64,000 nt of DNA from Pseudobdellovibrionaceae bacterium (GTDB lineage: Bacteria > Bdellovibrionota > Bdellovibrionia > Bdellovibrionales > UBA1609), in contig CANEZP010000020.1 of assembly GCA_947444305.1 (NCBI GenBank), positions 6,703-70,702 on the forward strand. The letters are read 5' to 3'. Made by a program: the position numbers and the translations under genes. Shown here one piece after another: positions 29,975 to 39,605 of the stretch; position 1 is the stretch's first letter; each line of letters begins with the position of its first letter. Under the pieces are notes generated by a model. That model saw nothing but the letters and a program-made list of their open reading frames with translations. It searched no databases and had not been told where the DNA came from.

Positions 29975-31750
29975 ATGGCCAAGGTGAGATATTGGTCCAT
30001 CGCCCTTATCGTTGGTTCCTGCCTGGCGGTGTACGGCGTTACGCTCGCCGGCGAATTTTTAGCTTGGGACGACCGGCAGCATTTCTTTTTGAATCCGCAT
30101 CTGGTGGCGGGTGAATTTCAGTTCTTTTGGACGAACGCCTACTACGGATTTTTTGCTCCGGTCACCTACACGGTTTGGACCACGCTCTTCCAGATTTCTC
30201 ACGAGCCTTGGCCGTTTCACCTCCTCAACTTAATCCTTCATACGTGCAACGCCCTTTTTGTTTTTTCACTGATTAAGGCGTTGCTCAAAACCGACGACCG
30301 AACCGCCGCCCTCGGTGCGCTCGTGTTCGCGCTTCATCCGCTACAGGTGGAGCCGGTGGCATGGATTTCGGGCGGCCGGGATCTGATGGCGGCATTCTTC
30401 GGACTGGCCGCGATGCGGACACTGCTAATTGGCTGTCCGGAGGTGCAAATGGCGGGTGGGTTGGCTCTGAATGGACGGAGTTTGTCTGTACAGAGTTCGG
30501 AGGACAGCACTCTGTCTGTACAGAGTTCAAATACACAGACTCTGTCTGTACAGAGTGCGATAGAACAGACTCTGTACAACCAGAGCTCCGATATCCCGAC
30601 TCTGTACAAACAGAGCTCCGAAACCCCCACTCTGTACAAACAGAGTCCGAAAATTCCGACTCTGTACAAACAGATCCCTTTATTCGCCACCGTGCTTTTC
30701 ATCCTCGGGCTCCTCGCCAAACCATCCCTCGCCGCGCTTCCCTTCGCTTTATTCGCCTTCGATGTTTGCCGGGGCCGGACGGCGTTCCGCCGCCGGACAC
30801 TTAGTCTTTGGTGCACGCTCAGCGCCGGATTGTTAGCGTACACCTTGACCCTCCAGGCCCCATATTCCGACCCACGTTTAACGGCGACTTTTTTCGAACG
30901 CGCGCTTGTTGCCATCGATGCCGCCGGTTTTTATTTAAAATCGTTCCTCTGGCCGTGGCCGCTCAGCTTTAGCTACGACCGGCAGATCGCCGAAGTGTTG
31001 AGCGAGAAGTCGTACTTGCGGGCCGCTGTCTTTTTATTTTTAGGCGCGCCCGTCCTCGTGCTTCTTGCATGGAGGTTCGGCAAGATCGTTCCCGCAAGTC
31101 TCGCGTTCGCAGTAGTTTTGCTCCTGTCCACGTTAGGTTTTGTTCCTTTCGCGGGTCAGGTCCAGTCCACCGCTTTTGACCGGTACATGTACCTTACGCT
31201 CGCCGCCGCGGCGCTCGTTACCGCTACCGTTGTTCGCGGGAAAGCTTCGCGCTTCGCGTGCATCGTACTAATCAGCGTGATGGCCGCGCTCAGTTTCTCG
31301 CGGGCGCGCGACTGGCTCAATGATCGCAATTTGAACGAAAGCGCAATCGCGATCAACCCCCGCAATTACATTGCCCTCAATAATCTTGCGATTTACGAAA
31401 TCTCGCAGAAGCAATTCAAAACCGCCGAAATTTATCTGCGCCGGGCTTGGGTGGCGAGACCGAAGCATGCGCTCGCGCCGGCGAACCTCGCGCATGCGCT
31501 TTGGTTGCAGAATGATGTCGGCTCGGTCCTCAAAGAAATTCTGCCGCTGACCGGTGACGAGCACTTTCTCACGTACAATGCGCGTGAGCCCGAATCACTC
31601 GCGCTTATCTTTCGCATGACTGCCCGGGCGTTAACCGCCACCTTAGATCATGACGGCGCCCGGAAAAATTACCTCAAGGCGCTTCACTACGGCGCAAGCG
31701 ACGCCGGTTTGCAATCCGAGTACGGCCTCTACCTGCGTGAGAACCAATAA
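29975..31750 (+). CDS. TMTC-like GT-C membrane glycosyltransferase/TPR protein carrying an in-frame repeat insertion
   Basis: WDD motif, FHLLNLILH, FALHPLQVEPVAWISG, LAKP, DRYMY, C-terminal TPR-like helices. Confidence 0.8.
   Translation: MAKVRYWSIALIVGSCLAVYGVTLAGEFLAWDDRQHFFLNPHLVAGEFQFFWTNAYYGFFAPVTYTVWTTLFQISHEPWPFHLLNLILHTCNALFVFSLIKALLKTDDRTAALGALVFALHPLQVEPVAWISGGRDLMAAFFGLAAMRTLLIGCPEVQMAGGLALNGRSLSVQSSEDSTLSVQSSNTQTLSVQSAIEQTLYNQSSDIPTLYKQSSETPTLYKQSPKIPTLYKQIPLFATVLFILGLLAKPSLAALPFALFAFDVCRGRTAFRRRTLSLWCTLSAGLLAYTLTLQAPYSDPRLTATFFERALVAIDAAGFYLKSFLWPWPLSFSYDRQIAEVLSEKSYLRAAVFLFLGAPVLVLLAWRFGKIVPASLAFAVVLLLSTLGFVPFAGQVQSTAFDRYMYLTLAAAALVTATVVRGKASRFACIVLISVMAALSFSRARDWLNDRNLNESAIAINPRNYIALNNLAIYEISQKQFKTAEIYLRRAWVARPKHALAPANLAHALWLQNDVGSVLKEILPLTGDEHFLTYNAREPESLALIFRMTARALTATLDHDGARKNYLKALHYGASDAGLQSEYGLYLRENQ
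30479..30676. repeat. 7-unit, 30-bp-period array of 18-bp palindromes with 12-bp variable spacers; orientation flips after unit 3
   Basis: Cores start at 30479, 30509 and 30539 (ACTCTGTCTGTACAGAGT; first unit degenerate) and at 30569, 30599, 30629 and 30659 (consensus ACTCTGTACAAACAGAG[C/T]). Confidence 0.9.
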
Positions 31751-31824: not shown

Positions 31825-32658
31825 ATGTACATTGGACTTCTGATTCTCACCTCGCTGTTCGCGCCGCTACGAGCTTCGGCGAACGAAACTTTCCGTCTCA
31901 ACTTCTCGCCGACCTGCCGGGATTGGTTGGCGCCGCGGTGGGAGCAAAATATGCGAATGCTCAATAGCATCGTCACCGGATCGGGCGAGATTATTCTCCT
32001 GACCGAAGCGGAACTTTTTCGCTTCGTCGACCTGCCACCCGCGCGGCCGCACCCATATCACCGGAGCGTTTTTGTATTGTTGCCCGCAACCGCTAACCAT
32101 ACCCTGCGGAGCGCGGCGGCCACCTACTCCGACAACCCCACGAAGTATCTCACCTTCGGTCATGATCACCGCTGGCTCGCGACTCATCTGCCAAACGCGA
32201 CGGATGAATTACCTCAGCATCTGCTCGTGCTCAATCATCCAGGAAGCGTTGCGATCGCGCGCCATGAGTTAACGCACGCCGAAGATTTCTCGGAGATCTA
32301 TAATTACGCTTTAGAACGCTTAGGACCCGGCACTAAAAAGACTTTGCTGATCAGAATGAGCGTTTTTCTTCTCATCACCGAACTGCGCGCTTACGCACTG
32401 GAGTTCCGTTTGATGCCGGAGGGCGCACACGCCCGGGACCTCGTCGCGACGGCGGCGTTGATCTTGGAACCGATGATCGAGGAGAGCCGCGCAAGTATTC
32501 CCCCACAAGATTGGGATTCCCTGCTAAACCGCTTGGGCGTAAAGGATCTTTCGCGTGACGGCATCGTTCGGTTATTCCGTTCGAACAGACCCATCCCGTC
32601 GTGGAAGGACATGCTGGACGGACTCGGGCCGGATGTCGTTCAGGAGCTTGAACCTTAG
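31825..32658 (+). CDS. secreted hypothetical protein with HExxH motif
   Basis: Signal peptide; RHELTHAE with downstream TELRAY, a zincin-like arrangement. Confidence 0.6.
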   Translation: MYIGLLILTSLFAPLRASANETFRLNFSPTCRDWLAPRWEQNMRMLNSIVTGSGEIILLTEAELFRFVDLPPARPHPYHRSVFVLLPATANHTLRSAAATYSDNPTKYLTFGHDHRWLATHLPNATDELPQHLLVLNHPGSVAIARHELTHAEDFSEIYNYALERLGPGTKKTLLIRMSVFLLITELRAYALEFRLMPEGAHARDLVATAALILEPMIEESRASIPPQDWDSLLNRLGVKDLSRDGIVRLFRSNRPIPSWKDMLDGLGPDVVQELEP

Positions 32659-32665
32659 CCACTCC

Positions 32666-32700
32666 AAAAAAAACCGGCCCCGTGGACACATCGGGACCGG
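32666..32700 (-). terminator. Rho-independent terminator of the RR-HPF-like operon
   Basis: CCGG...CCGG GC-rich stem preceded on the + strand by A8 (U-tract on the - strand). Confidence 0.7.
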
Positions 32701-32731
32701 CTAGGAATATACATCCCACTTTCGTAATTAA

Positions 32732-33091
32732 TTATAAGGCTAAATCAAAATGACGTGCGCGCGAGCGGCGGTTTAAATCCCGGCGTTGCTCAACCATCTT
32801 TTGCAACTGAGTCTTCACCGCGCCTTCACATTCGGAGATAGTCGACCAGAAGTCTTCGCCGGTTTCTTTGGCAAAGATTTTCCGGTGCAGTGACGGCGAC
32901 CACAACGACATATGAATTTCGAACATGGGCCCACCGAGCTCGCTCGGTCCCGCAACCGCCGAGATGAACAAATCCATCACGAGATCGCGTTCGTTGCCCA
33001 ATTTGCCGAACCTTTGCGCGACCGCTTGGCGAACGATGCCTTCGAAGTCAGGTTCGATATCGAGATGGCGAATGTGCGTACGTACTAACAT
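32732..33091 (-). CDS. HPF/RaiA (S30AE)-like protein
   Basis: Pattern I-RHLDI...helix...strands...IFAKETGEDFWSTI..C...VKTQLQK resembles HPF (RH-E...A-A...DLY-AID...L-RQL-K). Confidence 0.6.
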   Translation of the reverse strand: MLVRTHIRHLDIEPDFEGIVRQAVAQRFGKLGNERDLVMDLFISAVAGPSELGGPMFEIHMSLWSPSLHRKIFAKETGEDFWSTISECEGAVKTQLQKMVEQRRDLNRRSRARHFDLAL

Positions 33092-33139
33092 AAATCCCCC
33101 TAAAAAAATTTGAGTTAACGTTAAATTAAAAGCTATAAC

Positions 33140-33445
33140 CTAAAAACGATTTCCTGCCGACCAGCTACGAACCTTCTCCCACGCTTGGTTCAGCGCCCTT
33201 TCGGAAGCGATGAACGGGCTGCGCGAAGTTGAGTTCAGCACAAACTGCAAACCTTCCGAAGCCAGCGCCATGGCGACCTTGAACTGATCGCCCACCCGCG
33301 AGATATGCACGAGTAAGGTGCTGTCGGACGGCGCCCTCTGCAGCAGGCGTTCGGCATCAAGCTGCATCGATTGGGTTAGATCTTCACCGATCGCTAACCG
33401 GCTTACGTCGGTCTCGACGATCATCTTCATGTTCTCGAGATTCAT
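33140..33445 (-). CDS. small HPF-fold-like hypothetical protein
   Basis: 101 aa with a beta-alpha-beta-beta-beta-alpha pattern (APSDS...FKVAMAL...FVLNSTSRSPFIASERAL...VRSW). Confidence 0.45.
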   Translation of the reverse strand: MNLENMKMIVETDVSRLAIGEDLTQSMQLDAERLLQRAPSDSTLLVHISRVGDQFKVAMALASEGLQFVLNSTSRSPFIASERALNQAWEKVRSWSAGNRF

Positions 33446-33447
33446 AA

Positions 33448-33924
33448 TTAATTTCCTCCCTGGCGCGCGAGTTCGAGAATGTCATCGACGACTTCTACGC
33501 ATCGCTTAGCCGAAAGTGGTTTCTGTAAAAACACGGGACAGCCAAAATCTAAACTCATCAATAAATTATCTTTCGACAACGGCGCGCCGCTGACGAAAAT
33601 GAAGTTCGCGACTTCTTCGCCGTAACGATTCCACAGGTCCACGCCCGTGCCGGTGCCTTCCAAGAACACATCGGCGATCACGAGATCGTAGGGCCGGCCC
33701 ATGCGGTAGCGCGAGCGAATCATTTCCTCAGCTTCTTCTTCGGTCGCCGCCCAATCAATCTTCGGAGTGGTTCCGTGAAGCGAAAACACCTTTTCCCAAA
33801 ACGGCCAGAAGGCGCGGTCATCCTCGACGACCAGTACGCTCGGGGCTTCGCGCCCGACCAGACGAAGGATAGCTTCCTTCGGTTGGATAGTAATTTCGGG
33901 TTGTTTGATCATTGTTGTTTCCAT
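33448..33924 (-). CDS. single-domain response regulator
   Basis: VLVVEDD, DLVIADVFL, FVSG, FLQKP. Confidence 0.85.
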   Translation of the reverse strand: METTMIKQPEITIQPKEAILRLVGREAPSVLVVEDDRAFWPFWEKVFSLHGTTPKIDWAATEEEAEEMIRSRYRMGRPYDLVIADVFLEGTGTGVDLWNRYGEEVANFIFVSGAPLSKDNLLMSLDFGCPVFLQKPLSAKRCVEVVDDILELARQGGN

Positions 33925-33980
33925 AACTCTCTCCCTGTTCCCAGTTACCTGTTGGCGTTCATGATTATTTATCGGGGCGA

Positions 33981-34011
33981 GGTTTCAAACTGGATTGAAG
34001 GCGGATTGAAG
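33981..34011. promoter_or_regulatory. 11-bp-period direct repeats (OmpR/PhoB-type box candidate) in a divergent promoter
   Basis: GGATTGAAG at 33992 and 34003, with a degenerate GGTTTCAAA at 33981. Confidence 0.55.
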
Positions 34012-34042
34012 ATATCGCAACATCTGTTAGTCTCATCCTGAG

Positions 34043-34735
34043 ATGGCCAAACTCCTCTGCGTCGAAGACACCAAAGAATTCCAGATCTATTTGGGGAGCA
34101 TCCTGAAAGAGCACACGCTCACGTTCGCCGGCTCCGTCGCCGAAGCGATCCAGGTCGCGTCGGGCGGCGGAGAAATGTTCGACTTGATTCTGTTAGATAT
34201 CTCACTTCCCGACGGCAACGGGATGAAGGTCTTGCCGCAACTCAAAGAGTTTTTCCAGGCCCGTCCGATTCCGATCATCGTCCTCAGCTCAGACGACGAC
34301 ATCCTCACGAAAGTCGCCGCCTTCGGCATCGGGGCCGATGACTTCGTGGCCAAACCGCCCAACCCTAGCGAACTGAAAGCGCGCATCGAGGCGCGCCTAC
34401 GTTGGGCGAATTCACAACCGTCTCGCAAGAGCCGGCTGAGCGTAAAGGATCTCACGGTCGATCTCGAAAAAATGGCGGCCGAAATCACGCTCGACTCAGG
34501 ACTACACTTGGCGCTTGAACTCACACCTTTCGAATTCAAAATTCTAACTTTACTGATCGGCAGGCCCGGCCAGGTTTTCTCGCGCGACCAGATTATCGAA
34601 CGCGTTTGGGGCCACGGTAAACACATCACCGCGCGCACCGTCGACGCCCACGTCAGTCACCTGCGCAAAAAATTAATAAAGAGCGCGGTGCAAATCGATA
34701 CCGTCCTCAGCGCCGGCTATAAAATCTGCGCTTAA
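34043..34735 (+). CDS. OmpR/PhoB-family DNA-binding response regulator
   Basis: VED, LLDISLPDG, GADDFVAKP, LTPFEFKIL, RTVDAHVSHLRKKL, GY. Confidence 0.93.
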   Translation: MAKLLCVEDTKEFQIYLGSILKEHTLTFAGSVAEAIQVASGGGEMFDLILLDISLPDGNGMKVLPQLKEFFQARPIPIIVLSSDDDILTKVAAFGIGADDFVAKPPNPSELKARIEARLRWANSQPSRKSRLSVKDLTVDLEKMAAEITLDSGLHLALELTPFEFKILTLLIGRPGQVFSRDQIIERVWGHGKHITARTVDAHVSHLRKKLIKSAVQIDTVLSAGYKICA

Positions 34736-34742
34736 TAAAACG

Positions 34743-35165
34743 TTAGCTTAGAAGATATTTACCCAGCCCGGGGCAGCAGGCCGCGATGGTGGTTTTTATT
34801 TCGGCGCCTAGCTTTTCGAAGTTTGCGATGCCATCGGCGAAAGACGCAGGGTCCGGATTTCGCCGAAGGCCCCCGTCGAGATCACGCCCTTGCCGCCCCA
34901 ACCCCACGAACCCGAGCAGCTCGGCCGAGCCGGCGACCTTGTGAAAAACCCGGCACAGGATATTCACATCTTCGGCGGCGGCGACATCGACCAGCGCCGC
35001 GGCCAGCGTTTGGTCGAAACGCGCGAGGATATTGAGGACCGTCTTTTCGTCCGTATCTTCGAGCAGAGTCAAAAATCTTTCGCGCTCGAAACCGGGCCGC
35101 TTTTCCATCGCGAGATAGAGATTCTTTAACTCGACATCATGAAGATCAGGACCGGCGTTTCCCAT
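34743..35165 (-). CDS. Hpt histidine phosphotransfer protein
   Basis: FHKVAGSAELLG motif, all-helical, 140 aa. Confidence 0.8.
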   Translation of the reverse strand: MGNAGPDLHDVELKNLYLAMEKRPGFERERFLTLLEDTDEKTVLNILARFDQTLAAALVDVAAAEDVNILCRVFHKVAGSAELLGFVGLGRQGRDLDGGLRRNPDPASFADGIANFEKLGAEIKTTIAACCPGLGKYLLS

Positions 35166-35188
35166 AGATTCATATATACTAAATTAAT

Positions 35189-37666
35189 ATGCCGCTGGGT
35201 ACAGAACGAAAGTCTTGGTTGAGACGTGAATTACGCATGCCCGTGGCCGCGTTCCTGTTCGGCATCGTACTCACGCTTGCGGTAGCCATTTTGCTACACA
35301 AGGCGGAACGCAAAGCGCAAGAGCGTGATCTTTACGCCGAGGCCACCGAATTCTTCCGGCACATGGACTTGCTCGCCTTGAATAGCGTTTTAAAAATTCA
35401 GGCCTACGAAGAAAATGCACCGGCCCGCAGCCTTATGCTCGAAGTGCTACGCCACACGATCTTCCAGCGCGCTTCGATCTTCTTGCTCGAAAAAGATTTG
35501 GACGACGACGGCCTACCCGTCCTTACCCGCAAGCGAATGGTGGAAGTCGAAAACGCGACCCTGCAAAAAACGAAAAGTCCGCGGATGCGTTCGCCTACGT
35601 TGCGCAGAAACATCGGCAGCATGGTGCCCGACGGCGAATACAGCCGCATCGTTATTCATCACGACTCGGGCTCGGAAATTTTGAGCGTCGTCCTACGGTC
35701 CACGAAGGGCCGGAATGAATATCTGGTTTTCTCGACCCCGCTCCGTGCGCTGATCTCCGAGATCCGCTGGAAATCGGATTCGGCCATTCTTATCAGCTCG
35801 GACAACGCCGACGTAAAATGGCTTATAAATACTTGGCGCGAAAAGGAGCCTCAGATTACCAACGCGCCCGGCGAAGTCGCGCAATTCACGCAAGCCCGCC
35901 CGCGCTTGGTAGCGAGCCACGTCCTCGCCAATTCCGAAATCAAGCTGAGTTGGTATTACGGTACGGTCGTCGGTCTCTCCGGTCTTACGCTCATAGCGCT
36001 TGGCTCCGGCATCCTGATTTCATTCTTGGCCGCGCTGCTGATCTTCTCGCTACTCGCGCAAAACTCTCGCATTTCGGAACTCGTTATTTCGCGTACGCGC
36101 GAACTCGCCGTGGCCTTACACGAAGCGCAGGAAGCAAACCTTGTTAAAACCCGCTTCTTAGCCAACATTTCGCACGAAGTTCGCACGCCGCTGAATTTAA
36201 TCTTAGGCATGCTTGATTTGTCGGCCGAGCGTTCGACCGACGCTAAACTCAACGACTACATCAAAAGCATGCGCGCGGCGGGCGATCACTTGTTGGGATT
36301 AATTACCGATTTGTTGACGATGTCGCAGGTAGATCCCGTTGATCCGCAGATAAAGAACGTGCGGTTTGAATCCTTAGCGTTCTTCGAAGAAATTGCGCGC
36401 ATCATCGGTCCGAGCGCCCGCAAAAAAGGACTTCAATTTGAATTTGAGATCGAACCTTCGGTTCCGGGTCAGCTGCGTGGAGATCCGGCGCGCTTACGCC
36501 AAGTCGTAATGAATCTGCTGCGTAATTCGGTCAAATACACGAACGCCGGTTTCGTCTCGTTGCGGATTCGGTCCGCGCCGTCGACGAAGGCCGAGGAGTT
36601 CCGCTTGGCGATCGACGTTAGCGATTCGGGCGTAGGTATTCCCAAACGTCACCGTTCGGATGTCTTCAACCGCTTCTTCCAACTCGAAAGCTCACGGCGC
36701 TTCGCCGAGGGCGGCGTGGGCCTCGGTCTTTCGATCGTGAAGGAATTGGTGGATAAGATGAACGGTAAGATCCGTCTTGAATCCACAGAGGGGCGTGGTT
36801 CTACGTTCACCGTTGACCTCGCGTTGGCCGTGACCGATCGCACGTCGTGGACGGAAAACTTCAAAGCCGACGGCCGCTCAAAAGTCCTTGCGGTCACGCG
36901 CCGTGCTTCGCTGATTCATCTGCTTGATCACTTAGCGAGCGCGGGACACGTTGAGGTCAAACAAGAATCGCGAAACCTAAGTGATGGTTTAGCGAAATCA
37001 GATTTGCCGAATTTTGATAAAATCATTGCCGATTCGGGCTTTGAACGATCAACGCTCGTTCCGTCCTTGTTACCTACGGACCTCACTTCGTTCGTCGTGC
37101 TGGACAGCGACGACCGCCTACCCGGTGAGATGAGAACAAACGGCGCCGTGATCATCGATGACGCTCCGGTTTTACCGAGCAATCTCCTCCGTGCCCTGAA
37201 TTTTAAAATGGTGCGTGAACAAAAGCCGGCGGACGAAAAGATTGAATTCAGCGCCCTGCCGCTGCCGCAGAACTCGCGGCCCGAACGCCTGCGCTTGGTG
37301 ATCGCCGACGACGACGAGGGCAACCGTTACCTGATGAAGTCTTACCTCGAGGGCAGCGGCTGGGACATTGAGTTCGCGAGCAACGGCGAAGAAGCCCTCA
37401 ACGCGTGCATCATGCGCCCGGCCGATATCTTGATCGTCGACTTGCGCATGCCCGTGATGGACGGCTTCCAGACCGCCGACCACCTGCGAGCGTACGAATC
37501 GACGAACAACCGTTCCGCGACAAAAATCATCCTCGTTACCGCCGATGCCCTGCCCGAAACCAAGCAGGAAGCAAAAAGCCACGCCATCGATATGCTCCTC
37601 ACCAAACCGCTCCGCAAAAAGCATTTGTTCGAAGCGATTTCAAACTCCCGCACCGCCGCTTCGTAG
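35189..37666 (+). CDS. hybrid sensor histidine kinase/response regulator
   Basis: Two TMs flanking a periplasmic domain, H-box SHEVRTPL, N-box NSVKYT, DSGVGI, GVGLGL, C-terminal receiver (ADDD, DLRMP, KP). Confidence 0.93.
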   Translation: MPLGTERKSWLRRELRMPVAAFLFGIVLTLAVAILLHKAERKAQERDLYAEATEFFRHMDLLALNSVLKIQAYEENAPARSLMLEVLRHTIFQRASIFLLEKDLDDDGLPVLTRKRMVEVENATLQKTKSPRMRSPTLRRNIGSMVPDGEYSRIVIHHDSGSEILSVVLRSTKGRNEYLVFSTPLRALISEIRWKSDSAILISSDNADVKWLINTWREKEPQITNAPGEVAQFTQARPRLVASHVLANSEIKLSWYYGTVVGLSGLTLIALGSGILISFLAALLIFSLLAQNSRISELVISRTRELAVALHEAQEANLVKTRFLANISHEVRTPLNLILGMLDLSAERSTDAKLNDYIKSMRAAGDHLLGLITDLLTMSQVDPVDPQIKNVRFESLAFFEEIARIIGPSARKKGLQFEFEIEPSVPGQLRGDPARLRQVVMNLLRNSVKYTNAGFVSLRIRSAPSTKAEEFRLAIDVSDSGVGIPKRHRSDVFNRFFQLESSRRFAEGGVGLGLSIVKELVDKMNGKIRLESTEGRGSTFTVDLALAVTDRTSWTENFKADGRSKVLAVTRRASLIHLLDHLASAGHVEVKQESRNLSDGLAKSDLPNFDKIIADSGFERSTLVPSLLPTDLTSFVVLDSDDRLPGEMRTNGAVIIDDAPVLPSNLLRALNFKMVREQKPADEKIEFSALPLPQNSRPERLRLVIADDDEGNRYLMKSYLEGSGWDIEFASNGEEALNACIMRPADILIVDLRMPVMDGFQTADHLRAYESTNNRSATKIILVTADALPETKQEAKSHAIDMLLTKPLRKKHLFEAISNSRTAAS

Positions 37667-37760
37667 AGAACTTACCAAATCCGCTTACCCGCAGTCTTAT
37701 TTTGCCTCCGGCACGCGGAAGGTATTGGATTGAAGCTTAACCAACTTCTACGGGGGATTT

Positions 37761-38192
37761 ATGAAGTTATTGATCTTGGTTTTATCGTTGCTCACGGCCG
37801 CTTCGGCGCACGCCAAAAACTATTCGTTCAAGGGCGACGACGCTCGTAAACTGATGGAGACTTTGGCCGGCGCCGGCTTCGAAGTCTCTAATGCCCAACA
37901 AGAATGGGGCGGCAAGACACTAGTCATTCACACGAACGAAGTCTTCTGCCACTACACGGCCGTCTCCCACCCCGATGACTGGATGTCGAACGTCGACTGC
38001 TACAAAGGCACGGACCAAAGCGGCCCGAAACTAGCGAACCCGTTAGCGCTGGCCCAAGCGTTAGCACCCTACGCCACCCAAGAGGCGGGACTCGGCAACC
38101 GCTGGCTCAACGTGAATAGCGTTTCGTGCTCGCTCGTTTACGACAAACGTAAATACGACTGCGTGATCTCAGCGGAAGAAAGCCCGCGCTAG
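37761..38192 (+). CDS. secreted hypothetical protein (4 Cys)
   Basis: RBS GGGGG, signal MKLLILVLSLLTAASAHA. Confidence 0.75.
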   Translation: MKLLILVLSLLTAASAHAKNYSFKGDDARKLMETLAGAGFEVSNAQQEWGGKTLVIHTNEVFCHYTAVSHPDDWMSNVDCYKGTDQSGPKLANPLALAQALAPYATQEAGLGNRWLNVNSVSCSLVYDKRKYDCVISAEESPR

Positions 38193-38222
38193 AGCGGCGC
38201 GCGCAGCGCGCCGGTATCTAAA

Positions 38223-39605
38223 TCACTTGAATTTATTGATGATCTCTTTGAAGTAATTCCCACGCTCGACGTACGAGTCGAACATGTCGAACGACGAGGC
38301 GCCGGGCGACAGCAACACGGTGTCGCCGATGCGTGATTTTTGGTAAGCGATTAAAACCGCTTCTTCAAAAGTACCGATCAGGAAGGTTTCGCTGAAATCG
38401 CCGATGTCGCGATTGATGCGCTCTTTAGCTTCACCGACCAGAATCAAGGTCTTCACCTTGCGCTGAATTTTATCGCGCAGGGGCGCGTAGTTCAGGTTGG
38501 TCTCTTTACCGCCCATGATAAGAATCACGTTCTCGTCGAAGGCGTCGAGGCCGCGCAAAACCGCGTGCACGTTGGTGGCTTTTGAATCGTTAAAGAATTC
38601 TACGCCCCCGACTTTGCGGACGTATTCAAGGCGGTGGGGCATGCCTTTGTAGCTATCGATCGAGCGCTGGATGCTTTCGTGCTTAGCGCCGTGTTCACGC
38701 GCGGCCAAGATGGCGGCCATGATGTTCTCGTACGAGTGCTTGCCCTTCATCTTCATGTTTTCGACGTTGTAGTATTCGATCTCGGGACCGGTGCGCACGC
38801 GGATCGAATTTTTGATCGTGACCGCGCCGCCGATGTTCATGATTTGCGGTTCGAGCGAAGGTTTGCGCGAGAAATAGAAAATGCGGCCGCGCTGAACCAT
38901 CGGATCACGCGCGAGTTCAACGACGGCGTTGTCGTCGGCGTTCAAGATCGAGGTCGTGCCCTGATTGGTGTTCAAAAAGATTTTACGTTTGGCGTTCACG
39001 TACTCTTCCATCGTGCGGTAACGGTCGAGGTGATTTTCGGCCAAGTTCATGAACACGATGTTCTTCGGATTAAACTTCTGTACGTGTTCCAATTGGAAAG
39101 ACGAGACTTCGACCACGAGAACTTCGGCACGGTTATCGGCCATCAAATACTCGCACAAAGGTTCGCCGAAATTACCGCCGACCCACGATTTCACGCCCGA
39201 TTCGAGCAAAAAAGTATGAATCAGGTGCGTGGTCGTCGTCTTACCGTTGGTGCCGGTGACCGCGATCATCGGTTCTTTGATGAATTGCGAGCAGAACTCC
39301 ATCTCGCCGGTGACGTACACGCCTTGCGAGCGAGCGTAGTCGAAGATTTTAAGGTGAGGGGGCACGCCCGGGCTCAAGACGATGAGATCTTGGTTCAAAA
39401 AAGTTTTGGGCGTGTGGCCACCGAGTTCGAGCGTTACGGGTAAACCGTCGAGCTTTTCGAGGTGACCCGAAAGCTCGGCCTTCGATTTGTGATCGGAAAC
39501 GGTAACGACCGCGCCGTGTCGGCACAGGAACTTCGACAACGTGACGCCGGTTTTGGCAAGGCCGACGATAAGAACGCGTTTGCCGCTAAGTTCGCTAAAT
39601 TCCAT
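38223..39605 (-). CDS. murD: UDP-MurNAc-L-Ala--D-Glu ligase
   Basis: SPGVP, GTNGKTTT, EVSSFQL, HRLE, NDSKATN, LLSPGASSFD, ERG. Confidence 0.98.
   Translation of the reverse strand: MEFSELSGKRVLIVGLAKTGVTLSKFLCRHGAVVTVSDHKSKAELSGHLEKLDGLPVTLELGGHTPKTFLNQDLIVLSPGVPPHLKIFDYARSQGVYVTGEMEFCSQFIKEPMIAVTGTNGKTTTTHLIHTFLLESGVKSWVGGNFGEPLCEYLMADNRAEVLVVEVSSFQLEHVQKFNPKNIVFMNLAENHLDRYRTMEEYVNAKRKIFLNTNQGTTSILNADDNAVVELARDPMVQRGRIFYFSRKPSLEPQIMNIGGAVTIKNSIRVRTGPEIEYYNVENMKMKGKHSYENIMAAILAAREHGAKHESIQRSIDSYKGMPHRLEYVRKVGGVEFFNDSKATNVHAVLRGLDAFDENVILIMGGKETNLNYAPLRDKIQRKVKTLILVGEAKERINRDIGDFSETFLIGTFEEAVLIAYQKSRIGDTVLLSPGASSFDMFDSYVERGNYFKEIINKFK

What the first reader, a model, noticed from the sequence alone, without database searches (positions are those of the whole stretch)
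30430..30680. In-frame array of palindromes inside a TMTC-like glycosyltransferase gene, with a mid-array inversion
Seen: seven 18-bp hairpin cores (ACTCTGT-N4-ACAGAGT) at an exact 30-bp period, separated by six different 12-bp spacers (TCGGAGGACAGC, TCAAATACACAG, GCGATAGAACAG, TCCGATATCCCG, TCCGAAACCCCC, CCGAAAATTCCG). Units 1-3 are in the reverse-complement orientation of units 4-7 (the reverse complement of unit 2 matches unit 6 at 17/18), which explains the peptide switch from TLSVQS to TLYKQS. The array is stop-free in several frames on both strands and adds about 80 aa between two TM helices. Inference: the pattern is constrained at DNA/RNA level rather than protein level. It may be a selfish palindromic element tolerated in coding DNA (compare Rickettsia palindromic elements and REP/BIME arrays), a recombinase/protein binding-site array, or a repeat-spacer RNA template. 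I do not recognise the family.
Basis: partly seen in the sequence, partly recalled or inferred. Interest (0 to 1): 0.75.

Follow-up and report, generated by a model that had tools for sequence, protein, structure and literature searches.

The report
Dispersed palindrome array inside a gene
The seven in-frame hairpin repeats in this membrane-protein gene are one local expansion of a palindrome family scattered over the whole genome, whose reference copies sit in and just upstream of a family of twelve nuclease genes, so it is DNA-level "passenger" sequence that the protein merely tolerates in a floppy loop.

Summary
Seven ACTCTGT-N4-ACAGAGT cores lie at an exact 30-bp period (30479-30676), in frame in a 591-aa GT-C-like membrane/TPR gene.

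The array is not a local oddity. The same palindrome occurs 37 times (1 mismatch or fewer) in this genome, against 0 for a reversed control. Most copies are in apparently intergenic arrays with periods of 26, 30, 31 and 23-46 bp.

All 12 paralogous HNH-nuclease genes carry a family palindrome inside their coding sequence. Ten of the 12 also have a matching variant upstream.
- The internal copy forces the rare Arg codon AGA in 12 of 12 paralogs.
- It shows stem covariation in 12 of 12.
- The N-terminal domain of these proteins has a ParB/KorB-like DNA-binding fold and is predicted to form a dimer.

The sister species has exactly one in-frame unit at the same loop of the orthologous gene. Ten other homologues have none. 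A second locus, def-fmt, shows the same pattern (16 of 18 genomes empty).

Best reading: this is a REP-like, DNA-level palindrome family cognate to HNH/ParB-fold proteins. A unit was seeded in a disordered loop and then expanded in tandem.

None of the 24 RAYT-like genes has such a palindrome within 1.5 kb. Binding and mobility are inferred, not shown.

The parts
29975..31750 (+). Host gene: a 591-aa multi-pass membrane protein with C-terminal TPR repeats (GT-C/TMTC-like by lead only).
   Evidence: Pfam gives only TPR_17, below its cut-off. The AF2 model has pLDDT 82.4 and pTM 0.81. Foldseek hits TPR proteins and the archaeal oligosaccharyltransferase AglB (TMq 0.37-0.39). The atlas lists membrane+TPR clusters, including a TMTC_DUF1736 cluster at 0.98.
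30430..30478 (+). Leading part of the insert (CPEVQMAGGLALNGR) with no recognisable unit. It has no counterpart in homologues.
   Evidence: See the alignment. It evolves fast between strains: 7 substitutions fall in 30428-30467 in run X4.
30479..30556 (+). Sub-array A: units 1-3 (cores 30479-30496, 30509-30526, 30539-30556), loop CTGT, peptide (S/T)LSVQS.
30569..30676 (+). Sub-array B: units 4-7 (cores 30569-30586, 30599-30616, 30629-30646, 30659-30676), loop ACAA (the flipped form), peptide TLY(N/K)Q(S/I).
   Evidence: The core is the same as the internal palindrome of the HNH gene at G000:C2:383976.
30479..30676 (.). Whole 7-unit array. Pairwise identity is 0.88 for stems and 0.44 for spacers. 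As a single strand it can fold on itself.
   Evidence: Identities are. ssDNA fold: -47 kcal/mol, z = -8.9, 0 of 200 shuffles as stable. In the AF2 model the only segment with pLDDT below 50 is residues 158-224.

Best explanation
The array is one locus of a lineage-specific, DNA-level palindrome family with core (G)AACTCTGT-N4-ACAGAGTT(C). Sub-types differ in the centre and in one stem position.

The reference copies of this family belong to a multi-copy gene family (12 paralogues here). Each encodes an N-terminal ParB/KorB-like helical DNA-binding and dimerisation domain fused to a C-terminal HNH nuclease. Every such gene has a palindrome in the DNA that codes its inter-domain linker, and most have 1-9 copies of a matching variant a few hundred bp upstream of the start.

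I propose that the palindrome is the recognition site of dimers of these proteins: an operator, and possibly also a cleavage site. Solo copies have been seeded at other places in the chromosome, mostly after gene ends. Seeded copies then expand by tandem duplication of core plus spacer.

In this gene one unit entered a short loop between two membrane helices, in frame, before G000 and its sister G010 split. In the G000 lineage it grew to 3 + 4 units in the two loop orientations. It is kept because 30 bp preserves the frame, the unit carries no stop in that frame, and the encoded Ser/Thr/Gln-rich stretch is a disordered loop.

Shown:
- the anatomy of the array;
- its genome-wide distribution;
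- the linkage to the HNH genes;
- codon and stem covariation;
- empty and single-unit orthologous sites.

Inferred:
- protein binding;
- the mode of spread;
- neutrality for the host protein.
For: Dispersal.
- G000 has 37 sites at 1 mismatch or fewer, against 0 for the reversed control, and 64 sites at 2 mismatches or fewer.
- Further arrays lie at C2:33467-33783 (11 units, period 30), C2:319641-319887 (9 units, periods 23-46), C7:184958-185159 (period 26) and C22:17045-17248 (7 units, period 31).

HNH linkage.
- tblastn finds 12 full-length paralogues at 39-57% identity.
- With the broad pattern, 12 of 12 have a palindrome inside the gene, against 0 of 24 Y1_Tnp matches within 1 kb. Genome-wide that pattern gives 72 sites, against 7 for its reversed control.
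- Upstream and internal variants agree by sub-family: TTCTGTGCGCACAGAA, CTCTGCGCGCGCAGAG, CTCTGTTTAAACAGAG and CTCTGTACAAACAGAG.

DNA-level constraint inside the HNH genes.
- The conserved Arg is AGA in 12 of 12 paralogues. AGA makes up 3.6% of Arg codons in 639 long ORFs.
- CTC (Leu) pairs with a following G-initial codon in 7 of 7 cases, and TTC (Phe) with an A-initial codon in 5 of 5.

Same architecture elsewhere.
- Loci L035, L036 and L040 have both an upstream and an internal copy. L043 has the internal copy only; just 64 nt of its upstream flank are held.
- In G003 the same architecture uses a different palindrome, ACAAGTCCCGGGACTTGT, at -440, -255 and +782. That genome has 8 sites and the reversed control has 0.

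Protein.
- The AF2 model has pLDDT 87.9.
- Residues 15-136 are nearest to ParB-DBD/parS 6s6h (Z 8.0, rmsd 6.2, 106 aligned), KorB 8qa8 (Z 7.1) and 1r71 (Z 6.3), and Spo0J 1vz0 (Z 6.7). The C-terminal domain matches HNH folds.
- Homodimer prediction: score 0.79, best of 3 controls 0.06. The mark was reached by 20 of 30 proteins solved as pairs of one chain and by 1 of 23 solved as single chains. These counts hold only roughly because my own alignment was used. The runs share at least 92% of contacts and the partner pLDDT is at least 75.

Orthologous sites.
- The G010 orthologue (52-60% aa identity) has one unit, AACTCTGTTTAAACAGAGT = TLFKQS, in the same loop and the same codon phase. Ten further genus homologues have none.
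- def-fmt: 16 of 18 genomes have the genes abutting, G010 has one unit and G000 about nine.
- EF-G/CBS spacer: 11 units in G000. None in the four genomes where the upstream flank could be read (G010, G016, G009, G005). G001's contig ends 6 nt upstream of the gene, and only G010 keeps the EF-G neighbour.
- Downstream of ald: G000 has 7 units and G005 has two single copies with its own loop type. None in G010, G009 or G016, nor in the 77 nt held for G001.

Loop types. The commonest loop of the dispersed copies in each genome is also found at one resident HNH gene: TTAA in G010, ACGT in G005, ACAA in G000 and G009.

Host protein. The insert is the only segment of the model with pLDDT below 50.
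Against: - No binding, cleavage or transposition has been observed.
- The fold matches are of middling strength. The tool warns that Z below 8, or below about 13 for helical proteins, can be a common arrangement. Foldseek found no PDB match at E <= 0.001.
- The palindrome variant tracks HNH phylogeny, which simple co-inheritance of gene plus flank would also give.
- HNH genes exist in genomes without this palindrome. G015 has 18 matches and 0 sites, and there I found only weak shared upstream/internal words.
- For two of the 12 paralogues (C7:33420 and C5:275018) the upstream copy was found only with the relaxed pattern.
- Between two strains about 95% identical, cores changed at 8 of 126 positions and spacers at 9 of 72. 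This difference is not clearly significant, and the whole array (17 of 198) evolves faster than its flanks (12 of 403). Present-day constraint on this particular array is therefore weak.
- The conserved TTGACG upstream of the HNH genes was not called a promoter by the consensus scan. 'Operator' is therefore an inference.
- G010 is a fragmented assembly (about 500 contigs). A collapsed array there cannot be excluded.
Confidence: 0.6

Rival explanations
1. A classical REP/BIME-type element, mobilised in trans by one of the genome's many RAYT-like (Y1/HUH) transposases. The HNH genes would merely be frequent landing places.
For: G000 has 24 matches to Y1_Tnp PF01797, 20 of them over the cut-off. 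The solo copies sit in REP-like places, after stops and next to terminators. A GC-rich hairpin module is shared by the upstream regions of HNH genes and of at least 7 of the 24 Y1 genes.
Against: None of the 24 Y1 matches has an ACTCTGT-type or broad-family palindrome within 1-1.5 kb, whereas 12 of 12 HNH genes do. The palindrome lies at a fixed, codon-constrained position inside every HNH gene, with stem covariation. That is not what random landing gives. The hairpin associated with the Y1 genes is a different, GC-rich one.
Confidence: 0.12
2. A structural hairpin acting in RNA or single-stranded DNA (transcript stabiliser, processing site or replication pause), unrelated to the HNH proteins.
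For: The single strand folds much better than shuffles (z = -8.9). Stem covariation fits base-pairing as well as it fits a symmetric protein site. Many solo copies lie at 3' ends of genes.
Against: The stem sequence is conserved rather than freely compensated across species. Several units carry A-C mismatches on the sense strand: units 4 and 5 here, and the transcribed strand of the C2:33467 array. No Rfam family matches. I have no RNA data.
Confidence: 0.12
3. A selected peptide repeat (TL[SY][VK]QS-x4) of the membrane protein. The palindromes would then be a by-product.
For: The frame is kept over 7 units and the period is a multiple of 3.
Against: The same DNA occurs in apparently intergenic arrays with periods 26 and 31, and in another frame in the HNH genes. 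The peptide changes at the loop flip while the palindrome is kept. Ten of 11 homologues lack the repeat altogether. The region is predicted to be disordered and evolves faster than its flanks.
Confidence: 0.03
4. An assembly artefact, or a CRISPR-like repeat-spacer array.
For: None beyond the repeat-spacer look.
Against: The six spacers are all different, so the array can be assembled unambiguously. A contig from another study spans it without gaps. An 18-nt repeat with 12-nt spacers inside an ORF is far below the CRISPR sizes I recall.
Confidence: 0.02

Closest known systems
REP/BIME elements with their RAYT transposases (recalled: enterobacteria, Pseudomonas)
   Same: A short palindrome dispersed in tens of copies, mostly extragenic and near gene ends, often clustered. 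It is species-specific in sequence and linked to a multi-copy or domesticated nuclease-type gene that carries the palindromes next to itself.
   Different: The linked gene is an HNH nuclease with a ParB-like DNA-binding domain, not a Y1/HUH transposase (0 of 24 against 12 of 12). One copy lies inside the partner gene's coding sequence. The arrays are head-to-tail with fixed periods rather than alternating BIME pairs. I did not look for a conserved 5' GTAG (recalled feature).
Rickettsia palindromic elements (RPE). Recalled. PMC1779305 and PMC10969869 appeared in a search listing only and were not read.
   Same: Palindromic selfish DNA inserted in frame into protein-coding genes and tolerated as an extra surface or loop segment.
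   Different: As I recall, RPEs are single elements of about 100-150 bp. Here an 18-bp core with a 12-bp spacer is repeated 7 times in tandem. The taxon is different and there is no sequence relation.
Operator and centromere sites of ParB-family proteins: KorB OB sites on RK2, sopC of F (recalled as 12 x 43 bp, each with a 16-bp inverted repeat) and parS. PMC11790492 was seen as listing and abstract start only.
   Same: A 13-16-bp palindrome that occurs in several dispersed copies or regular tandem arrays. It is bound by a dimeric protein whose DNA-binding domain is the fold nearest to this HNH family's N-domain.
   Different: The fold hits cover only the DNA-binding domain, so no ParB CTPase/Srx domain was seen. 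The protein carries an HNH nuclease instead. The sites are chromosomal, in at least 5 arrays, and one array is in a coding region. There is no partition ATPase context.
Auxiliary operators inside coding regions (lac O2 in lacZ, gal OI in galE; recalled)
   Same: An upstream site plus a cognate site within the transcribed or coding region of the regulated gene.
   Different: Here the internal site is 650-780 bp into the gene and shapes its codons. Looping or roadblock is only a conjecture.

Membership tests
REP/BIME-RAYT system | Short palindromes dispersed in many, mainly extragenic, copies | tested here: met
   37 sites at 1 mismatch or fewer against 0 for the control. Of 64 sites at 2 mismatches or fewer, 42 lie away from the HNH genes.
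REP/BIME-RAYT system | A RAYT (Y1/HUH) gene flanked by the same palindromes | tested here: not met
   0 of 24 PF01797 matches have such a palindrome within 1.5 kb.
REP/BIME-RAYT system | Conserved GTAG-type tetranucleotide 5' of the hairpin (recalled feature) | not tested
   I made no targeted test. The flanks listed show GAA/TTC extending the palindrome.
Rickettsia palindromic elements | In-frame insertion of a palindromic element into an otherwise conserved protein-coding gene | tested here: met
Rickettsia palindromic elements | A single element of about 100-150 bp belonging to the RPE sequence families of Rickettsia (recalled) | tested here: not met
   The unit is 18 + 12 bp repeated 7 times. 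The closest HNH relatives that carry names are Bdellovibrionales MAGs.
ParB/KorB/SopB-type protein with palindromic site arrays | ParB-type helix-turn-helix DNA-binding domain | tested here: inconclusive
   VIA-align: 6s6h Z 8.0, 8qa8 Z 7.1, 1vz0 Z 6.7, 1r71 Z 6.3, 3mkw Z 4.5. Foldseek: ParB and Noc chains at E 0.09-0.5. These values are middling for a helical domain.
ParB/KorB/SopB-type protein with palindromic site arrays | Dimeric protein | tested here: met
   Prediction only. Score 0.79, best of 3 controls 0.06. The mark was reached by 20 of 30 solved homodimers and 1 of 23 solved monomers.
ParB/KorB/SopB-type protein with palindromic site arrays | Specific binding of the protein to the palindrome | not testable with these tools
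   Needs EMSA, DAP-seq or ChIP.
ParB/KorB/SopB-type protein with palindromic site arrays | N-terminal ParB/Srx CTPase domain | not tested
   The fold hits cover only the DNA-binding domains. No Pfam ParB hit appeared among the listed families.
DUF222-HNH ('13E12 repeat') proteins | Pfam DUF222 (PF02720) N-terminal to HNH | tested here: not met
   PF02720 is not among the 25 families listed (of 40 matched) for the 41 family members scanned at E <= 1, while HNH matched 41 of 41. The atlas gives a DUF222-named Bdellovibrionota cluster at 0.94 in which 12% of members carry the domain. That is a lead only.
CRISPR array | Repeats and spacers each of some 20-70 nt, outside ORFs, usually with cas genes (recalled) | tested here: not met
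   An 18-nt core and 12-nt spacer inside an ORF. I ran no search for cas genes.
GT-C / TMTC-like glycosyltransferase (host gene) | Match to a curated family model (e.g. TMTC_DUF1736, PMT_2) | tested here: not met
   Pfam gives only TPR_17 at 18.7 bits, below its 24.4 cut-off. NCBIfam gives only a weak PilW match.
GT-C / TMTC-like glycosyltransferase (host gene) | GT-C membrane fold plus a luminal/periplasmic TPR domain | tested here: inconclusive
   Foldseek: AglB 3wak and 7e9s with TMq 0.37-0.39 over 567-599 columns, plus many TPR hits. The atlas lists a TMTC_DUF1736 cluster at 0.98. A WDD motif is invariant in 11 homologues.

The most novel reading that the evidence does not exclude
ParB-fold/HNH nuclease genes form a new kind of selfish system in Bdellovibrionales. 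Each gene carries its own recognition palindrome in its control region and in its linker-coding DNA, and it seeds copies of that palindrome around the chromosome, for example through break-and-repair at or near the site. The copies then expand into arrays, even in frame inside genes. This would be an HNH-based counterpart of the REP/RAYT relationship.
Probability: 0.3. Interest if true: 0.8.

Novelty: new variant of a known kind. Interest (0 to 1): 0.62.

Why it matters
If the link holds, three things follow.
- It adds a second kind of partner, an HNH nuclease with a ParB-like DNA-binding domain, to the short list of proteins known to go with dispersed bacterial palindromes.
- It offers a clean natural example of DNA-level elements shaping codons inside genes, with AGA forced in 12 of 12 paralogues.
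- It shows how such elements enter and expand in coding DNA without killing the gene.

It also flags a Bdellovibrionales-specific multi-gene family that is currently annotated only as 'HNH/McrA'. That family comes with a testable DNA site.

Tried and rejected
- Rfam scans of six loci (two with solo sites or arrays, three HNH loci and one Y1 locus) gave only chance-level rows.
- The first metagenome pattern scan (two ACAA units) found nothing. The looser scan gave 9 loci. Two look related: L096, 7 units at a 27-bp period after a GC-rich hairpin, and L101, two ACGT-type units. The other 7 look unrelated, four of them AT-rich arrays. No HNH homologue was found in any of the nine by tblastn. This scan neither widened nor narrowed the picture.
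- Five paper searches returned nothing on an HNH family tied to palindromic arrays: Bdellovibrio + HNH endonuclease + palindromic; HNH endonuclease/REP/multicopy; DUF222 + HNH; RPE/in-frame; KorB/operator/palindromic/ParB/HNH. I saw listings and abstract starts only and read no paper.
- Pfam and NCBIfam name only the HNH domain.
- The sigma-70 consensus scan did not call the conserved TTGACG upstream of the HNH genes, and it found no promoter-like site around the array.
- Sequencing runs: apart from X1 (possibly the source) and X4, the runs hold only small shares. X2 and X3 cover parts of the stretch with contigs that end inside or next to the array. There is no usable RNA evidence.
- In the G015 HNH loci I found no clear cognate palindrome, only short shared words at other positions.
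- I considered a larger true inversion (arms with spacers) and dropped it. The inverted-repeat arms are 72-81% complementary only because of the cores.
Full report
**The observation**

The window holds seven copies of ACTCTGT-N4-ACAGAGT, starting at 30479 and repeating every 30 bp. Mismatches to the pattern are 2, 0, 0, 2, 1, 0 and 2. Dinucleotide shuffles of the window give 0.05 such sites on average, and none of 100 shuffles reached seven.

- The six 12-nt spacers are all different and read exactly as reported.
- The array lies in frame in ORF 29975-31750 (591 aa), where it is read as (S/T)LSVQS-x4 three times and then TLY(N/K)Q(S/I)-x4 four times.
- Units 1-3 carry loop CTGT and units 4-7 carry ACAA. 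Because the stem is its own reverse complement, this 'inversion' is defined by the loop alone. The spacers are not inverted copies of each other.
- Four of six frames are stop-free over 30430-30680.
- Stems are 0.88 identical pairwise and spacers 0.44.
- As a single strand the array folds at -47 kcal/mol, z = -8.9.
- A 1068-nt contig from a different study (run X4) covers 30250-30850 with 31 substitutions and no gaps. The seven-unit structure therefore exists outside this assembly. Run X1 also holds it, but may be the source of this DNA.

**The host gene**

Pfam gives only a sub-threshold TPR hit. An AlphaFold2 model built on 11 homologues has pLDDT 82.4 and pTM 0.81. Its only segment below pLDDT 50 is residues 158-224, which is the insert.

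Foldseek finds TPR proteins, and for the membrane part the oligosaccharyltransferase AglB at TMq 0.37-0.39. The protein atlas lists membrane+TPR clusters, including a TMTC_DUF1736 cluster at 0.98. 'GT-C/TMTC-like' is thus a reasonable lead, not a demonstrated membership. Hydrophobic windows at residues 137-155 and 236-254 bracket the insert.

**The array is not a local curiosity**

In the whole assembly (G000, 4.17 Mb, 29 contigs) the pattern occurs 37 times at 1 mismatch or fewer, against 0 for the reversed control, and 64 times at 2 mismatches or fewer. Other arrays are:

| Location | Units | Period (bp) | Setting |
|---|---|---|---|
| C2:33467-33783 | 11 | 30 | between an EF-G-like and a CBS-like gene |
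| C2:319641-319887 | about 9 | 23-46 | between def and fmt |
| C7:184958-185159 | 9 | 26 | upstream of the HNH gene C7:185461 |
| C22:17045-17248 | 7 | 31 | downstream of an alanine-dehydrogenase-like gene |

Periods that are not multiples of three, in stretches where the only ORFs are those opened by the repeat itself, show that the repeat is not a coding device. Single copies sit just after stop codons and beside terminator-like hairpins. The def-fmt array shows the same flip as the window array: three units with (C/T)TGT loops are followed by units with ACAA-type loops.

**Linkage to a nuclease gene family**

Three genes next to palindromes proved to be paralogues. tblastn found 12 full-length copies at 39-57% identity (alignment A1). 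Pfam sees only a C-terminal HNH domain.

Every paralogue has a palindrome of the family inside its coding sequence. It encodes [LF]C..R just before the conserved PLTAAQ.HAV-HNH part.

- That Arg is AGA in 12 of 12 paralogues, although AGA is 3.6% of Arg codons in 639 long ORFs of this genome.
- The outer stem pair covaries. CTC is followed, after the Arg, by a G-initial codon in 7 of 7 cases, and TTC by an A-initial codon in 5 of 5.
- One sub-family has a second internal copy at +472, read in another frame as ALRAQK.

Upstream of the genes lies a conserved layout: a GC-rich hairpin module, then one to nine palindromes, then a conserved TTGACG, a leader of about 200 nt, GGAG and ATG. The upstream palindromes are of the same variant as the internal one in each sub-family.

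With a broad pattern, 12 of 12 HNH genes contain a site. That pattern finds 72 sites genome-wide, against 7 for its reversed control.

**RAYT-like genes are numerous but not linked**

PF01797 (Y1_Tnp) gives 24 matches in G000, 20 of them over the cut-off. None has a palindrome of this family within 1-1.5 kb. At least seven of them share the GC-rich hairpin module with the HNH upstream regions. That module has about 28 blastn matches in the genome. It is a second, different repeat family.

**The protein**

An AlphaFold2 model of the paralogue whose palindrome equals units 4-7 (41-sequence alignment A2) has pLDDT 87.9. It consists of a helical N-domain, a low-confidence linker (a 10-residue block with mean pLDDT 52) and an HNH domain. 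By my reckoning from coordinates, the palindrome is encoded around residues 218-224, at that linker.

The all-against-all structural search puts residues 15-136 nearest to:
- the ParB DNA-binding domain on parS (6s6h, Z 8.0, rmsd 6.2, 106 aligned);
- KorB (8qa8, Z 7.1; 1r71, Z 6.3);
- Spo0J (1vz0, Z 6.7);
- SopB (3mkw, Z 4.5).

Foldseek lists ParB and Noc chains at E 0.09-0.5 and finds nothing at E <= 0.001. By the tool's own caveat these values are middling for a helical domain.

A homodimer prediction scored 0.79 against 0.06 for the best of three controls.
- The mark was reached by 20 of 30 solved homodimers and 1 of 23 solved monomers. These counts are only rough here because my own alignment was used.
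- The runs agreed in at least 92% of contacts, and the partner pLDDT was at least 75.
- The interface is symmetric and lies in the N-domain.

A symmetric dimer with a ParB/KorB-like DNA-binding domain is what one expects for a 16-bp palindrome. Binding itself is not shown.

**Relatives**

Record titles of the nearest named HNH loci are Pseudobdellovibrionaceae and Bdellovibrionales MAGs. A profile search found 191 family members at E <= 1e-5, named only 'HNH endonuclease/McrA' where named at all.

- Among 40 relatives, only six same-genus genomes have 7-24 sites (G001, G004, G005, G007, G009, G010). G014 has 2, and the other genomes have at most one, the same order as the controls (0-3).
- The HNH family is found in 15 of 18 genus genomes. 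The three without it (G006, G011, G016) also have no sites. However, G015 has 18 HNH matches and no such palindrome.
- Loci L035, L036 and L040 repeat the upstream-plus-internal layout. L043 shows the internal copy only, with just 64 nt of upstream flank held.
- In G003 the same layout uses a different palindrome, ACAAGTCCCGGGACTTGT, at -440, -255 and +782. That genome has 8 such sites and the reversed control none. Two pairs of these sites flank single unrelated genes.
- The commonest loop of the dispersed copies in each genome is also present at one resident HNH gene: TTAA in G010, ACGT in G005, ACAA in G000 and G009.

**Empty and occupied orthologous sites**

| Locus | G000 | Sister G010 | Other genomes |
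|---|---|---|---|
| Membrane/TPR gene loop | 7 units | 1 unit, AACTCTGTTTAAACAGAGT = TLFKQS, same codon phase | 10 homologues (27-39% overall identity): 5-15-residue loop, no palindrome |
| def-fmt junction | 341-nt spacer, about 9 units | 162-nt spacer, 1 unit | 16 of 18 genus genomes: genes abut |
| EF-G/CBS spacer | 11 units | none | none in G016, G009 or G005; G001's flank not held; only G010 keeps the EF-G neighbour |
| Downstream of ald | 7 units | none | G005: two single copies of its own type; none in G009 or G016, nor in the 77 nt held for G001 |

G010 is the sister species (its def protein is 89% identical). Its orthologue of the host gene is 52-60% identical, and a gene next to it in G010 matches window 38187-38963. 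Overall, sites are gained or lost between species and arrays expand within a lineage.

**Present constraint on this array**

Present constraint is weak. Between the window and X4, the array changed at 17 of 198 positions (cores 8 of 126, spacers 9 of 72), against 12 of 403 in the flanks. Two of the core changes restore pairing in unit 4 (my tally from the differences listed).

**Reading**

I read the array as a tolerated, in-frame, tandemly expanded copy of a DNA-level palindrome family cognate to the ParB-fold/HNH genes.

Shown:
- the anatomy of the array;
- its dispersal over the genome;
- the gene linkage;
- codon and stem covariation;
- single-unit and empty orthologous sites.

Inferred:
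- that the HNH proteins bind, and perhaps cut, the palindrome;
- that this drives seeding of new copies;
- that arrays grow by slipped or unequal duplication;
- that the insert is neutral for the host protein.

**Rivals and what is in print**

The rival explanations are mobilisation by RAYT, an RNA or ssDNA hairpin function, a selected peptide repeat, and an artefact or CRISPR-like array. They are weighed in their own sections. My five paper searches found no description of such a system (listings and abstract starts only). The comparisons with REP/RAYT, RPE, sopC/SopB, KorB operators and lac O2 rest on recall.

Noticed in passing
G000 contigs: C7:185461-186501, C7:33420-34376, C15:28362-29300, C3:4359-5306, C16:49393-50334, C13:125940-126890, C2:237860-238906, C2:383253-384272, C1:322537-323490, C18:16285-17289, C5:274053-275018, C17:23313-24302 (not in the window): Twelve paralogous genes of 313-349 aa, each with a helical ParB-like N-domain and an HNH domain. 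Each has a cognate palindrome in its linker-coding DNA, and most have palindromes upstream. A more distant thirteenth copy lies at C6:83975-84769.
   Followed up: yes
G000, e.g. C13:125540-125640, C1:116406-116505, C14:65406-65492, C6:63863-63944: A conserved module of about 100 nt (GC-rich hairpin TCTTGCGGCCGCGGACGGCCGCAAGA followed by AGCCACTCTCAAGGACGG) has about 28 blastn matches. It precedes both the HNH genes and at least 7 of 24 small Y1_Tnp (RAYT-like) genes. On the opposite strand it scans as a terminator. No Rfam match.
   Followed up: partly
G000:C2:325540-325700: Five tandem terminator-like hairpins (AAAGCCGGAGCGATCCGGC...) directly follow a single palindrome after a stop codon. 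This genome is rich in tandem extragenic hairpins of several kinds.
   Followed up: no
window 31825-38187: In the sister genome G010, the contig that carries the 3' end of the orthologous membrane/TPR gene continues into a gene that matches window 38187-38963 (96% aa). About 6.4 kb between them may therefore be specific to G000, or rearranged.
   Followed up: no
L082 (G003:C1:100852 and 101536) and L083 (G003:C1:244533 and 245361): In G003, copies of that genome's HNH-cognate palindrome bracket single unrelated genes: a 180-aa His-rich protein and a 232-aa methyltransferase-like protein. The arrangement is cassette-like.
   Followed up: partly
G000:C7:126493 and C7:128337: Two GCGC-centred palindromes with similar left flanks of about 15 nt lie 1.8 kb apart and bracket two ORFs. 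They may be the ends of an inserted segment.
   Followed up: no
G000:C3:5450-5560 (upstream of the C3 HNH gene) and the CT-rich tracts upstream of several HNH genes: A run of the heptamer CAATTCT repeated about 12 times, and CT-rich low-complexity tracts, lie between the hairpin module's far-upstream part and the palindromes.
   Followed up: no
L096:1202-1379 (metagenome contig): A 27-bp-period array of seven GCTCTGTTCCAACAGAG units follows a GC-rich hairpin. This resembles the layout upstream of the HNH genes, but no HNH homologue is present in the 1.7 kb held.
   Followed up: partly
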